Positions 18,001-24,000 of a stretch of DNA of 64,000 nucleotides are shown here, piece by piece. Every line of letters begins with the position of its first letter. Position 1 is the stretch's first letter. Made by a program: the position numbers. The stretch comes from Escherichia coli O157:H7 (GTDB taxonomy: Bacteria > Pseudomonadota > Gammaproteobacteria > Enterobacterales > Enterobacteriaceae), in the NCBI RefSeq assembly GCF_013167455.1, contig NZ_CP038328.1. One strand, written 5' to 3'.

Positions 18001-21000
18001 CGAAACGCACTGCCGGACAGACAAATGAACTTATCCCTACGACGCTCTACCAGCGCCCTTCTTGCCTCGTCGTTGTTATTAACCATCGGACGCGGCGCCA
18101 CGCTGCCATTTATGACCATTTACTTGAGTCGCCAGTACAGCCTGAGTGTCGATCTAATCGGTTATGCGATGACAATTGCGCTCACTATTGGCGTCGTTTT
18201 TAGCCTCGGTTTTGGTATCCTGGCGGATAAGTTCGACAAGAAACGCTATATGTTACTGGCAATTACCGCCTTCGCCAGCGGTTTTATTGCCATTCCTTTA
18301 GTGAATAACGTGACGCTGGTGGTGCTCTTTTTTGCCCTCATTAACTGCGCCTATTCCGTTTTTGCTACCGTGCTGAAAGCCTGGTTTGCCGACAATCTTT
18401 CATCCACCAGCAAAACGAAGATCTTCTCGATCAACTACACCATGCTCAATATTGGCTGGACCGTCGGCCCGCCACTCGGCACGCTGTTGGTCATGCAGAG
18501 CATCAATCTGCCCTTTTGGCTGGCCGCTATCTGCTCTGCGTTTCCCATGTTTTTCATTCAAATTTGGGTAAAGCGCAGCGAGAAAATCATCGCCACGGAA
18601 ACAGGCAGTGTCTGGTCGCCGAAAGTTTTATTACAAGATAAGGCACTGTTGTGGTTTACCTGCTCTGGCTTTCTGGCTTCTTTTGTTAGTGGCGCATTTG
18701 CTTCATGCATTTCACAATATGTGATGGTGATTGCTGATGGTGATTTTGCCGAAAAGGTGGTCGCGGTTGTTCTTCCAGTGAATGCTGCCATGGTGGTTAC
18801 GTTGCAATATTCCGTGGGCCGCCGCCTTAACCCGGCTAACATCCGCGCGCTGATGACAGCAGGCACCCTCTGTTTCGTCATCGGTCTGATCGGTTTTATT
18901 TTTTCCGGCAACAGCCTGCTATTGTGGGGTATGTCAGCTGCGGTATTTACTGTCGGTGAAATAATTTATGCGCCGGGCGAGTATATGTTGATTGACCATA
19001 TTGCGCCGCCAGGAATGAAAGCCAGCTATTTTTCCGCCCAGTCATTAGGCTGGTTGGGCGCAGCGGTAAATCCATTAGTGAGTGGTGTTGTACTTACCAC
19101 TCTCCCGTCGTCTTCGCTGTTTATCATTCTGGCGTTAGTCATCATTGCCGCGTGGGCGCTGATGTTAAAAGGTATTAACGCCAGACCCCAGAGGCAACCA
19201 GCACTCTGTTGACGTTCGTGCCGTTCCACTACTGGCACGGCTTCGCTAATCATTATTCTGAGGCAAAGGCATAGCCTTCATCTTCCCAGCCGGTTATCCC
19301 GCCGAGCATGATTTTAACCGGCTTTCCGAGTCGAGCCAGTTTGAGTGCCGCACGGTCTGCACCGTTACAATGTGGCCCCGCGCAATACACCACAAATAGC
19401 GTATCGTCGGGCCATTCGGCCATTCTTTCTGCGGTCATTTGCTTATGGGGTAAATGGAGAGCGCCTGGGATATGCCGACGCGCGAAGTCCTCTTCACGTC
19501 CAACCACATGAAGTAAAACGAAATCATCGCCAATATAAGCCAGAGAGTCATGAACATCGGCGCAATCTGTTTCGACACTCAAGCGCGCGAGAAAATGCGC
19601 CTCAGCAACTTCTGGCTTCGCTGTGGTAAATTCAGTGACATAACGCATATTGCTTTGTCCTTTTGGTTTGTTGTGTTAACAATAATGTAACTAATCTACC
19701 TTTCACTGACCGCCTCTCGATATGCCAGAAATGAGCAAAATGATGACAACGTTACAACGTCCGCTGGTCATTGCACTGGCATATGACGGGCTATGTACTT
19801 TTGAATTTGGCGTTGCCGTTGAAATATTCGGCCTGCCACGACCGGAACTGGGCGATAACTGGTATCGTTTTGCTGTTGCTGCGGTAGAACCAGGTGCGCT
19901 ACAAGCCACCGGGGGGATCCACGTGGTTGCTGATGGTGGACTGGAGTTATTGCCCAACGCCGATATGATTATTATTCCTGGCTGGCGCGGAATAGATGCC
20001 AAAGTGCCGGAGATGCTATGCCAGTCATTGCGCGAGGCACACCAGCGCGGTACTCGCCTGGTATCAATATGCTCTGGCGTGTTTGTCCTTGCTGCTGCGG
20101 GCCTTCTTCATCAGCGAAAAGCAACCACCCACTGGCGCTACACTGAACAACTCCAGCACCGTTACCCTTCAATCAGCGTAAGTGACAATGTGTTATATCA
20201 GGATGAAGGACAAGTGATGACCTCCGCCGGAAGCGCCGCGGGGATCGATCTGTGTTTACATATCGTGCGCAAAGATTTTGGTCATGAGATTGCTAATAAT
20301 GTCGCCCGGCGACTGGTCATTCAGCCACATCGCCAGGGGGATCAACCACAAAATCTGACGCGCCCAATGGCCTCACCGCGTGAAAGCCAGACGTTAGGTG
20401 CCTTATTCGACTTTTTGCAGCAGAATCTGGCACAAACACATACTGTGTCTTCCCTCGCCGAACGGGTAAATATGAGTCCGCGCACTTTTTTAAGACGTTT
20501 TGAGGCGTTAACTGGCATGACGCCCGCCCGCTGGCTGCTCAATGAGCGCTTAATACGAGTACAGGATTATCTGCAAAATTCGGTTTTTAACATCGAGAAA
20601 ATTGCCGAGCTGACGGGTTTTGGCAATTCAGCGTTATTGCGTCATCACTTTCACCAACGTTTTTTATTATCTCCTTCGCAATATCGCAAAAACAGCCGTT
20701 CCCCATCACAATAATCGCCTGATTCAGCCTTTGTTTAGATAACCTCTGCTAATATCTTTCTCATTGAGATAAAAATTAAGGTAAGCGAGGAAACACACCA
20801 CACCATAAACGGAGGCAAATAATGCTGGGTAATATGAATGTTTTTATGGCCATACTGGGAATAATTTTATTTTCTGGTTTTCTGGCCGCGTATTTCAGCC
20901 ACAAATGGGATGACTAATGAACGGAGATAATCCCTCACCTAACCGGCCCCTTGTTACAGTTGTGTACAAGGGGCCTGATTTTTATGACGGCGAAAAAAAA

Positions 21001-24000
21001 CCGCCAGTAAACCGGCGGTGAATGCTTGCATGGATAGATTTGTGTTTTGCTTTTACGCTAACAGGCATTTTCCTGCACTGATAACGGATCGTTGACACAG
21101 TAGCATCAGTTTTCTCAATGAATGTTAAACGGAGCTTAAACTCGGTTAATCACATTTTGTTCGTCAATAAACATGCAGCGATTTCTTCCGGTTTGCTTAC
21201 CCTCATACATTGCCCGGTCTGCTCTTCCAATGACCACATCCAGAGTCTCTTCAGGAAATGCGCGACTCACACCTGCTGTCACGGTAATGTTGATATGCCC
21301 TTCAGAATGTGTGATGGCATGGTTATCGACTAACTGGCAAATTCTGACACCTGCACGACATGCTTCTTCATCATTAGCCGCTTTGACAATAATGATAAAT
21401 TCTTCGCCCCCGTAGCGATAAACCGTTTCGTAATCACGCGTCCAACTGGCTAAGTAAGTTGCCAGGGTGCGTAATACTACATCGCCGATTAAATGCCCGT
21501 AGGTATCATTAACCAATTTAAATCGGTCAATATCCAACAACATTAAATAAAGATTCAGAGGCTCAGTGTTGCGTAACTGATGATCAAAGGATTCATCAAG
21601 AACCCGACGCCCCGGCAATCCCGTCAAAACATCCATATTGCTACGGATCGTCAGCAAATAAATTTTGTAATCGGTTAATGCCGCAGTAAAAGAAAGCACC
21701 CCCTCCTGAAAGGCGTCGAAATGCGCGTCCTGCCAGTGATTTTCAACAATAGCCAGCATTAATTCCCGACCACAATTATGCATATGTTGATGGGCAGAAT
21801 CCATTAGCCGAACGTAAGGTAATTCATCGTTATCGAGTGGCCTCAGATGATCAATCCACCGACCAAACTGGCACAGTCCATAAGAATGGTTATCCGTTAT
21901 TTCTGGCTTACTGGCATCTCTCGCGACCACGCTGTGAAACATACTCACCAGCCACTGATAGTGGGCATCGATAGCCTTATTGAGATTTAACAAGATGGCA
22001 TCAATTTCCGTTGTCTTCTTGATCATTGCCACTCCTTTTTCACAGTTCCTTGTGCGCGCTATTCTAACGAGAGAAAAGCAAAATTACGTCAATATTTTCA
22101 TAGAAATCCGAAGTTATGATTCATCTCTGAGATAACATTGTGATTTAAAACAAAATCAGCGGATAAAAAAGTGTTTAATTCTGTAAATTACCTCTTCATT
22201 ATCGCAAATGAAAGGATGACAAATAGCATAACCCAGTACCCAAATGGCCCGGTAGTTCAGGCCATCAGGCTAATTTATTTTTATTTCTGCAAATGAGTGA
22301 CCCGAACGACAGCCGGCGCGCTTTTCTTATCCAGACTGCCGCTAATGTTGATCATCTGGTCCGGCTGAACTTCTCGTCCATCAAAAACGGTCGCAGGAAT
22401 AACAACATTAATTTCACCACTCTTATCGCGAAAAACGTAACGGTCCTCTCCTTTGTGAGAAATCAAATTACCGCGTAGTGAAACCGAAGCGCCATCGTGC
22501 ATGGTTTTTGCGAAATCAACAGTCATTTTTTTTGCATCATCGGTTCCGCGATAGCCATCTTCTATTGCATGAGGCGGCGGTGGCGCTGCATCCTGTTTTA
22601 AACCGCCCTGGTCATCTGCCAACGCATAAGGTATGACAAGAAAACTTGCTAATACAATGGCCTGAAATTTCATACTAACTCCTTAATTGCGTTTGGTTTG
22701 ACTTATTAAGTCTGGTTGCTATTTTTATAATTGCCAAATAAGAATACTGCCAATTGTTATAAGGCATTTAAAATCAGCCAACTAGCTGTCAAATATTCAG
22801 AGAATTTAACTCACTAAAGTTAAGAAGATTGAAGAGTCTTAAACATATTTTCAGAATAATCGGATTTATATGTTTGAAAATTATTATATTGGACGAGCAT
22901 ACAGAAAAAGCAAATCACCTTTACATATAAAAGCGTGGACAAAAAACAGTGAACATTAATAGAAATAAAATTGTACAACTTGCAGATACCGACACTATTG
23001 AAAACCTGACATCCGCGTTGAGTCAAAGACTTATCGCGGATCAATTACGCTTAACTACCGCCGAATCATGCACCGGCGGTAAGTTGGCTAGCGCCCTGTG
23101 TGCAGCTGAAGATACACCCAAATTTTACGGTGCAGGCTTTGTTACTTTCACCGATCAGGCAAAGATGAAAATCCTCAGCGTAAGCCAGCAATCTCTTGAA
23201 CGATATTCTGCGGTGAGTGAGAAAGTGGCAGCAGAAATGGCAACCGGTGCCATAGAGCGTGCGGATGCTGATGTCAGTATTGCCATTACCGGCTACGGCG
23301 GACCGGAGGGCGGTGAAGATGGTACGCCAGCGGGTACCGTCTGGTTCGCGTGGCATATTAAAGGCCAGAACTACACTGCGGTTATGCATTTTGCTGGCGA
23401 CTGCGAAACGGTATTAGCTTTAGCGGTGAGGTTTGCCCTCGCCCAGCTGCTGCAGTTACTGCTATAACCAGGCTGGCCTGGCGATATCTCCAGGACAGCC
23501 ATTGGTGGTGTTTATATGTTCAAGCCACGATGTTGCAGCATCGGCATAATCTGAGGAGCCTTACCGCGCCATTGTCGATACAGGCGTTCCAGATCTTCGC
23601 TGTTACCTCTGGAAAGGATCGCCTCGCGAAAACGCAGCCCATTTTCACGCGTTAATCCGCCCTGCTCAACAAACCACTGGTAACCATCATCGGCCAACAT
23701 TTGCGTCCACAGATAAGCGTAATAACCTGCGGCATATCCGCCACCAAAAATATGGGCAAAATAACTGCTGCGATAGCGTGGCGGTATAGCAGGAAGATCC
23801 ATATTTTCTGCCACCAGCGCCCGCAATTCAAAATCATCGACATCCTGCATTGCTTCGTTTTCTTCCAGGCAATGCCAGCGCATATCGAGAAGTGCGGCGC
23901 TAAGCAGTTCGCTCATCTCATACCCTTTGTTGAACAGGCTGGCATTACGCATTTTCTGTTGCAGTTCGTCAGGCATTGCTGCCCCGCTCTGATAATGCCG

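What the first reader, a model, noticed from the sequence alone, without database searches (positions are those of the whole stretch)
20715..21135. Divergent PhoP-regulated small protein / small RNA pair with recognisable promoter elements
Seen in sequence: mgtS has a TGTTTA half-site at 20732-20737 twelve nt upstream of a TAATAT -10. The candidate mgrR promoter on the minus strand has GTTTAA upstream of TACTGT, and the RNA ends at a strong terminator about 98 nt later. Established knowledge: PhoP boxes are (T/G)GTTTA direct repeats, and mgtS and mgrR are PhoPQ-regulated.
Basis: partly seen in the sequence, partly recalled or inferred. Interest (0 to 1): 0.3.

Follow-up and report, generated by a model that had tools for sequence, protein, structure and literature searches.

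The report
Known mgtS–mgtT / MgrR magnesium-stress locus

Summary
TGTTTA lies at 20732-20737, exactly 12 nt before TAATAT (20750-20755). On the minus strand, GTTTAA half-sites lie upstream of TACTGT (21102-21097), and a hairpin plus U-tract ends the RNA at 20993.

Identity is confirmed. The minus strand 21090-20993 is 97/98 identical to K-12 mgrR (b4698) and lies inside a full-length Rfam STnc560 hit (281.9 bits). The ORF at 20822-20917 is MgtS (NCBIfam equivalog, 79.9 bits). The locus occurs in 5416 of 5426 complete E. coli genomes.

Corrections:
- The genes are convergent. The promoters sit at the outer ends.
It overlaps the mgtS stop, runs through the mgtS terminator, and is antisense to the last 29 nt of MgrR.
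- The consensus motif alone is at chance level in the window. The support comes from a weight matrix built from footprinted PhoP boxes, from the exact 12-nt spacing, and from conservation in Citrobacter and Salmonella.

The mgrR promoter carries three phased half-sites. The published box (-52..-36) and a canonical-position box (-41..-25) share the central one, and I cannot tell which PhoP uses.

Verdict: already known, low interest.

The parts
20721..20737 (+). PhoP box of the mgtS promoter, GATTCA-gcctt-TGTTTA. It is in direct orientation and ends 12 nt before the -10 hexamer.
   Evidence: Two mismatches to the consensus. The 19-mer 20720-20738 scores 10.43 bits, rank 12 of 127,964. TTCA...TTTGTTTA and the 12-nt spacing are conserved in Escherichia and most Citrobacter; Salmonella arizonae has TGCTTA.
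20750..20755 (+). mgtS -10 hexamer TAATAT. There is no recognisable -35. The transcription start is inferred at about 20762-20763.
   Evidence: Read from the sequence. The hexamer is TACTAT in most Citrobacter and in Salmonella arizonae, at the same spacing. The standard sigma-70 scan finds no -35/-10 pair. The start site is inferred, not measured.
20822..20917 (+). mgtS (yneM) coding sequence, 31 aa: MLGNMNVFMAILGIILFSGFLAAYFSHKWDD
   Evidence: ORF list. RefSeq annotation. NCBIfam NF033842 equivalog, 79.9 bits against a cut-off of 35. The ORF is 31 aa in all 18 other loci that carry it. It differs from K-12 by V11I.
20917..21021 (+). mgtT coding sequence, 34 aa. Its ATG overlaps the mgtS TAA stop (TAATG). 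It runs through the mgtS terminator hairpin and ends inside the MgrR terminator on the opposite strand.
   Evidence: RefSeq annotation in O157 and K-12. Detected by ribosome profiling and tagging, and reported as an mgtS-mgtT operon. The ORF is 9-66 aa outside Escherichia. No NCBIfam family.
20945..20983 (+). mgtS intrinsic terminator: hairpin GGCCCCUUGUUACA-GUUG-UGUACAAGGGGCC (20945-20975), then UGAUUUUU.
   Evidence: Fold of 20915-21025, z = -3.8. The Term-seq 3' end in K-12 at 1622804(+) corresponds to window 20980. The hairpin is conserved, with changes in its inner stem, in all loci.
20993..21090 (-). MgrR small RNA, 98 nt: a 5' hairpin, an unpaired A/C-rich region, and a terminator hairpin with an 8-U tail.
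   Evidence: Coordinates transferred from K-12 ncRNA b4698 through alignment A1; 97/98 identical, with C instead of U at nt 4. Lies inside the Rfam RF01407 hit at 21124-20911, 281.9 bits. Fold -25.9 kcal/mol, z = -2.9. 19 distinct homologues keep the structure.
20993..21019 (-). MgrR Rho-independent terminator: stem-loop 21019-21000 and U-tract to 20993.
   Evidence: Terminator scan. The Term-seq 3' end in K-12 at 1622824(-) corresponds to window 21000 and has a very high read score.
21097..21102 (-). mgrR -10 hexamer TACTGT. Six nt separate it from the annotated 5' end, G at 21090.
   Evidence: Read from the sequence. The 5' end comes from the K-12 annotation. TAnnnT is kept in all 21 sequences.
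21115..21142 (-). Three PhoP half-sites in 11-bp phase: AGTTTA (21142-21137, -52..-47), CGTTTA (21131-21126, -41..-36), CATTGA (21120-21115, -30..-25). They give two overlapping boxes, 23 nt and 12 nt from the -10 hexamer.
   Evidence: The distal plus central pair equals the published -52..-36 box; 9.36 bits, rank 25. The central plus proximal pair scores 14.29 bits, rank 2. The central half-site and CATTG are invariant across genera. Which flank scores higher differs by clade.

Best explanation
This is the E. coli O157:H7 copy of the known mgtS-mgtT / mgrR locus. It holds two convergent transcription units, and each is driven by a sigma-70 promoter that lacks a -35 element. In its place is a PhoP direct-repeat box ending 12 nt upstream of the -10 hexamer.

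Under low Mg2+, PhoQ phosphorylates PhoP, and PhoP-P bound at these boxes recruits RNA polymerase. The rightward unit makes the mgtS mRNA, which mostly ends at the hairpin and U-run near 20980. Transcripts that read through that terminator also encode mgtT. The leftward unit makes the 98-nt Hfq-binding RNA MgrR, which ends at its own terminator.

According to the literature, MgtS raises intracellular Mg2+ and modulates PitA. MgrR represses eptB, ygdQ, pitA and soxS by base pairing.

Shown here: gene identities, coordinates, element spacing, motif scores, conservation and structure. Taken from the literature: PhoP dependence and the functions of the products. Inferred: the mgtS start site, and which pair of half-sites PhoP uses at mgrR.
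For: - Identity of MgrR: Rfam RF01407, 281.9 bits, full length; 97/98 identity to the annotated K-12 mgrR.
- Identity of MgtS: NCBIfam equivalog, 79.9 bits.
- Annotation and distribution: RefSeq lists mgtS and mgtT at these coordinates. The locus occurs in 5416 of 5426 complete E. coli genomes.
- Motif scores: 14.3 bits (mgrR) and 10.4 bits (mgtS), ranks 2 and 12 of 127,964 positions. These are the only two sites in the window with TANNNT exactly 12 nt downstream. That spacing is 'architecture I' of footprinted PhoP promoters.
- Conservation: boxes, spacing and -10 hexamers are kept in Escherichia, Citrobacter and Salmonella arizonae.
- 3' ends: terminators by scan and fold; Term-seq 3' ends in K-12.
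- Literature: mgrR and yneM are described as directly PhoP-activated. mgtS-mgtT reporter activity depends on PhoQ. MgrR is PhoP/Q-activated in Salmonella.
Against: - No expression or binding data exist for this strain.
- The strict consensus is at chance frequency in the window.
- The joint motif-and-spacing test is only modestly significant on its own: 4% of shuffles reach 2 sites.
- The K-12 mgtS box, on which the experiments were done, scores only 4.6 bits with this matrix. The matrix is therefore an imperfect predictor.
- The 20 comparison loci were retrieved with an exact 20-mer from MgrR. That biases them toward close relatives.
Confidence: 0.92

Rival explanations
1. At mgrR, PhoP uses only the published box at -52..-36 (AGTTTAagctcCGTTTA). 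That box lies 23 nt from the -10 hexamer, as at rstA and pagP. It would activate through the alpha-CTD of RNA polymerase rather than by replacing the -35 element.
For: This is the box attributed to Moon and Gottesman 2009. It has only 2 mismatches to the consensus, against 4 for the -41..-25 box (sequence). A 23-nt spacing is a documented working architecture. In the Citrobacter freundii group the distal register scores higher, 14.5 against about 7 bits.
Against: In this window and in other Escherichia and Salmonella arizonae, the proximal register scores higher: 14.3-15.8 bits against 5.2-9.4. The distal hexamer is not conserved as a sequence across genera, whereas CATTG at -30..-26 is invariant. 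CATTGA occurs as the second repeat of the footprinted orgB box.
Confidence: 0.4
2. The PhoP-like motifs are chance matches, and PhoP acts on one or both genes indirectly through another regulator.
For: Consensus matches are at background frequency. A better consensus match (1 mismatch) sits inside the MgrR terminator, where it cannot be a promoter element. No binding assay on these promoters was accessible in the library.
Against: Weight-matrix ranks of 2 and 12 out of 127,964, both with the correct strand, orientation and exact 12-nt spacing. Conservation of the box, the spacing and the -10 hexamer across three genera. The literature calls the activation direct.
Confidence: 0.04
3. As the title says, the two genes are divergent and share one PhoP-bound control region.
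Against: mgtS runs 20822 to 20917 on the + strand and mgrR runs 21090 to 20993 on the - strand. The two boxes are about 390 bp apart at the outer ends, and the 3' ends face each other.
Confidence: 0.01

Closest known systems
E. coli K-12 mgtS (b4599) - mgtT (b4775) - mgrR (b4698) locus
   Same: Same gene order, the same overlaps, and the same dgcZ neighbour. MgrR is 97/98 identical. MgtT is identical. MgtS differs by one residue (V11I).
   Different: Upstream of mgtS, this strain has ftrA and a rhodanese gene that K-12 lacks. Homology resumes about 20 nt before the PhoP box. The box reads GATTCA...TGTTTA here and AATTCA...CGTTTA in K-12, scoring 10.4 against 4.6 bits.
Rfam RF01407 STnc560 (Hfq-binding RNA first listed in Salmonella)
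   Same: Full-length match, 281.9 bits against a gathering score of 55.
   Different: The model is 214 nt long. It covers 34 nt of promoter, the 98-nt RNA, and 82 nt beyond it, including the mgtS terminator and stop codon. The family boundaries are not those of the RNA.
Architecture I PhoP-activated promoters (mgtA, phoP, slyB, yrbL, pmrD, orgB; Zwir et al. 2012)
   Same: A single direct-orientation box ends 12 nt upstream of the -10 hexamer, and there is no -35.
   Different: Both boxes here have one strong and one weak repeat. mgrR has a third phased half-site upstream, so it can also be read as architecture III (23 nt, as at rstA).

Membership tests
MgrR / Rfam RF01407 (STnc560) | Covariance-model score at or above the gathering threshold | tested here: met
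   281.9 bits against 55, E = 1.8e-64, model positions 1-214
MgrR / Rfam RF01407 (STnc560) | Sequence identity and position relative to the annotated E. coli K-12 mgrR (between mgtS/mgtT and dgcZ, opposite strand to mgtS) | tested here: met
   97/98 identical; same neighbours and strands
MgrR / Rfam RF01407 (STnc560) | Rho-independent terminator with a long U tail, and a conserved unpaired region for base pairing | tested here: met
   8-bp GC-rich stem plus 8 U. Term-seq 3' end in K-12. An invariant stretch extends beyond the 20-mer used for retrieval.
MgrR / Rfam RF01407 (STnc560) | Hfq binding and repression of eptB, ygdQ and pitA | not testable with these tools
   Literature only
MgtS (NCBIfam NF033842, equivalog) | Profile score above the curated cut-off over the full 31 residues | tested here: met
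   79.9 bits against 35; residues 1-31 on profile positions 1-31
MgtT | 34-codon ORF whose ATG overlaps the mgtS stop codon, identical to K-12 b4775 | tested here: met
   Identical protein in the window and in K-12. Annotated in RefSeq. No profile family exists.
PhoP-activated promoter, architecture I | PhoP box in direct orientation, 11-12 nt upstream of a -10 hexamer | tested here: met
   mgtS: 10.4 bits, 12 nt to TAATAT. mgrR: 14.3 bits, 12 nt to TACTGT. Footprinted training sites score 9.3-23.0 bits.
PhoP-activated promoter, architecture I | PhoP-P binding to the box, and PhoP-dependent transcription | not testable with these tools
   Reported for K-12 fusions and reporters. The mgrR box was defined by consensus only.
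Divergent gene pair with a shared control region | 5' ends adjacent and transcription running outward | tested here: not met
   The 3' ends are adjacent and the promoters are at the outer ends

The most novel reading that the evidence does not exclude
PhoP activates mgrR from the -41..-25 box (CGTTTAacattCATTGA), either instead of or together with the -52..-36 box cited in the literature. That box sits at the canonical 12-nt position. The three phased half-sites, kept in Escherichia, Citrobacter and Salmonella, would let PhoP bind in two registers, and the preferred register would differ between genera.
Probability: 0.4. Interest if true: 0.15.

Novelty: already known. Interest (0 to 1): 0.07.

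Why it matters
It matters little as a discovery. The locus, its regulation by PhoQ/PhoP and the functions of MgtS and MgrR have been published and are annotated in reference genomes.

The re-examination is useful in four ways:
- It corrects the gene orientation.
- It adds mgtT.
- It shows that consensus matching alone does not identify these promoters.
- It raises a small, testable point about which half-sites PhoP uses at mgrR.

Tried and rejected
- The standard sigma-70 promoter scan found nothing in 20600-21250. This is expected for activator-dependent promoters without a -35.
- The strict PhoP consensus scan did not rise above chance, and it produced a decoy inside the MgrR terminator.
- The primary papers could not be read: Moon and Gottesman 2009, Wang 2017, Yin 2019 and Thomason 2015 are not held. 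I used papers that cite them instead.
- The Cappable-seq supplement held no entry for the expected start coordinates, so the mgtS start remains inferred.
- No paper in the library links the names STnc560 and MgrR. The equivalence rests on coordinates.
- After the alignment, I first thought the proximal mgrR box was the only conserved one. Per-species scoring showed that the distal register scores higher in the Citrobacter freundii group, so I dropped that claim.
- The mgtS 5' UTR shows no significant structure, z = +0.73.
- One of the 20 retrieved loci (Caldithrix, L006) was a chance 20-mer match, and I excluded it.
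Full report
**What is in the sequence.** Between ftrA (19743-20714, +) and dgcZ (21136-22026, -) lies a 421-bp stretch. On the + strand, TGTTTA (20732-20737) is followed after exactly 12 nt by TAATAT (20750-20755). A 31-codon ORF starts at 20822. On the minus strand the sequence reads AGTTTA-agctc-CGTTTA-acatt-CATTGA-gaaaactgatgc-TACTGT-gtcaac-G. TACTGT is at 21102-21097 and the final G is at 21090. The only terminator-like site in the region is on the minus strand: stem-loop 21019-21000 followed by a U-tract.

**Identity.**
- An Rfam scan of the whole window gives a full-length hit to RF01407 (STnc560) at 21124-20911 on the minus strand. It scores 281.9 bits against a gathering score of 55.
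- The region is 100% identical to several E. coli O157:H7 chromosomes. It is found in 5416 of 5426 complete E. coli genomes.
- RefSeq annotates mgtS (20822-20917) and mgtT (20917-21021) at these coordinates.
- The K-12 record also annotates the ncRNA mgrR (b4698, 98 nt). Alignment to K-12 places MgrR at 21090-20993 on the minus strand. It is 97/98 identical, with C instead of U at nt 4.
- MgtS matches the NCBIfam equivalog NF033842 at 79.9 bits against a cut-off of 35.

**Corrections to the interpretation.**
- *Orientation.* The genes are convergent. mgtS runs rightward, mgrR runs leftward, and the two promoters lie about 390 bp apart at the outer ends.
Its ATG overlaps the mgtS stop codon (TAATG). 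Its ORF runs through the mgtS terminator hairpin (20945-20975). Its last 29 nt are antisense to the MgrR 3' end.
- *3' ends.* Term-seq data for K-12 place 3' ends at positions equivalent to window 20980 (+) and 21000 (-). Most mgtS transcripts therefore stop inside the mgtT ORF, 13 nt short of MgrR, and mgtT needs terminator read-through.
- *Status of mgtT.* It was detected by ribosome profiling and epitope tagging, and is reported as part of a PhoQ-dependent mgtS-mgtT operon with no phenotype so far. In the other genera examined, MgtS is always 31 aa, but the mgtT frame is 9 to 66 codons long. MgtT therefore looks poorly constrained outside Escherichia.

**Are the PhoP boxes more than chance?**
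- The full consensus (T/G)GTTTA-N5-(T/G)GTTTA with up to 2 mismatches occurs 21 times against 14.3 expected. A 1-mismatch decoy lies inside the MgrR terminator. Consensus matching alone therefore does not identify these promoters.
- I built a weight matrix from the 26 activation boxes footprinted in Salmonella (Zwir et al. 2012, Table 1). With it, the mgrR 19-mer 21132-21114 scores 14.29 bits (rank 2 of 127,964 positions). The mgtS 19-mer 20720-20738 scores 10.43 bits (rank 12). The upstream mgrR register 21143-21125 scores 9.36 bits (rank 25). The terminator decoy scores 7.12 bits (rank 76).
- The two promoters are the only sites in the window that combine at least 10.4 bits with TANNNT at exactly 12 nt. 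Shuffles average 0.33 such sites, and 4% reach two.
- A box in direct orientation 12 nt upstream of the -10 hexamer is "architecture I" of PhoP-activated promoters such as mgtA and phoP.

**Conservation.**
- An exact 20-mer from MgrR retrieved 19 true loci from Citrobacter species, Salmonella enterica subsp. arizonae, E. albertii, E. whittamii, another E. coli and a MAG labelled Raoultella. The 20th hit was a chance match in Caldithrix.
- At mgtS, TTCA-N5-TTTGTTTA, the 12-nt spacer length and TA(A/C)TAT are kept in Escherichia and most Citrobacter. Salmonella arizonae has TGCTTA in place of TGTTTA, and two Citrobacter loci have CAGGAT or CATGAT at the -10 position.
- At mgrR, the central (C/T)GTTTA, the following CATTG, the 12-nt spacer length and TAnnnT are kept in all of them.
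- The MgrR RNA keeps its 5' hairpin, with one compensatory pair (A-U to U-A), and keeps its terminator. The invariant unpaired stretch extends beyond the 20-mer used for retrieval.
- The retrieval method biases the sample toward close relatives.

**The one open point.**
- The PhoP box attributed to Moon and Gottesman 2009 is at -52 to -36 and was defined by consensus. This is AGTTTAagctcCGTTTA (21142-21126). It lies 23 nt from the -10 hexamer, and its first half-site overlaps the last codon and stop codon of dgcZ.
- The central half-site also pairs with CATTGA to form a box at -41 to -25, the canonical 12-nt position. CATTGA is the second repeat of the footprinted orgB box.
- In Escherichia and Salmonella arizonae the proximal register scores higher: 14.3-15.8 bits against 5.2-9.4. 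In the Citrobacter freundii group the distal register scores higher: 14.5 against about 7 bits. The medians are equal.
- Both spacings are documented working architectures. Sequence analysis alone cannot decide which register is used.

**Mechanism.** Low Mg2+ activates PhoQ, and PhoQ phosphorylates PhoP. PhoP-P bound at the boxes substitutes for the missing -35 and activates both promoters together. MgtS and MgrR then act on Mg2+ homeostasis and envelope modification, with both acting on PitA (titles and statements). The coordinates, spacing, motif scores, conservation and RNA structure are shown here. PhoP dependence and product functions come from the literature. The mgtS start site (about 20762) and the half-site usage at mgrR are inferred.

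**Verdict.** The locus is already known and annotated, so interest is low.

Noticed in passing
window 19253-20714, and about 20700-20720: A rhodanese-like gene and the AraC-type regulator ftrA lie between ydeE and mgtS in this strain but are absent from K-12. Homology to K-12 resumes only about 20 nt upstream of the mgtS PhoP box. The box itself differs between the strains: GATTCA...TGTTTA here (10.4 bits) and AATTCA...CGTTTA in K-12 (4.6 bits). TGTTTA is the state in the other Escherichia and Citrobacter species examined (Salmonella arizonae has TGCTTA), so the K-12 version looks derived.
   Followed up: partly
window 20917-21021: The mgtT frame is identical in K-12 but varies from 9 to 66 codons in Citrobacter and Salmonella. 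Only the N-terminal MNGD.P...RPL is kept. That part overlaps the region just after the mgtS stop and the first arm of the terminator hairpin, so its conservation may reflect the RNA hairpin rather than the protein.
   Followed up: partly
window 21013-20997 (-): The best strict-consensus PhoP match near the locus (GGTTTACTGGCGGTTTT, 1 mismatch) lies inside the MgrR terminator hairpin. It scores only 7.1 bits with the footprint-derived matrix and is probably a coincidence of the GGTTT/U-tract sequence.
   Followed up: yes
window 21436-21418 (-), inside dgcZ: A 13.3-bit PhoP-matrix hit (TGATTACGAAACGGTTTAT) has TATCAT 21 nt downstream. It is on the same strand as dgcZ and mgrR, about 300 nt upstream of mgrR and inside the dgcZ coding sequence. 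It is probably chance and was not examined further.
   Followed up: no
window 20776-20794 (+), mgtS 5' UTR: The block TTAAGGTAAG(C/A)GAGGAAAC is conserved between Escherichia and Citrobacter more strongly than its flanks, but not in Salmonella arizonae. The UTR has no significant predicted structure (z = +0.73). Its function is unknown.
   Followed up: partly
window 21124-20911 (-): The Rfam STnc560 model is 214 nt long, more than twice the length of the 98-nt RNA. It includes promoter sequence, the mgtS terminator and the mgtS stop codon. Part of its high score therefore reflects conservation of neighbouring elements.
   Followed up: yes
window 59076-61942: Other Rfam hits lie in the prophage part of the window: AgvB (59076-59137, +), STnc100 (59138-59330, -), a weak partial tRNA match (59417-59476, -) and sok (61767-61942, -).
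   Followed up: no
window about 28000-64000: The window is collinear with O157:H7 strain PV15-279 up to about 30 kb. After that the frames shift, in a region of IS elements and prophage genes, so that record's annotation cannot be transferred by coordinate beyond there. The top PhoP-matrix hit in the window (32088-32070, 14.4 bits) lies in this IS/prophage region.
   Followed up: partly
L013 (Citrobacter amalonaticus), around 685-704: This genome has a well-conserved MgrR and its promoter, but the adjacent sequence does not align to mgtS. The sRNA may therefore occur there without the neighbouring small-protein gene. I did not check whether mgtS lies elsewhere in that genome.
   Followed up: no
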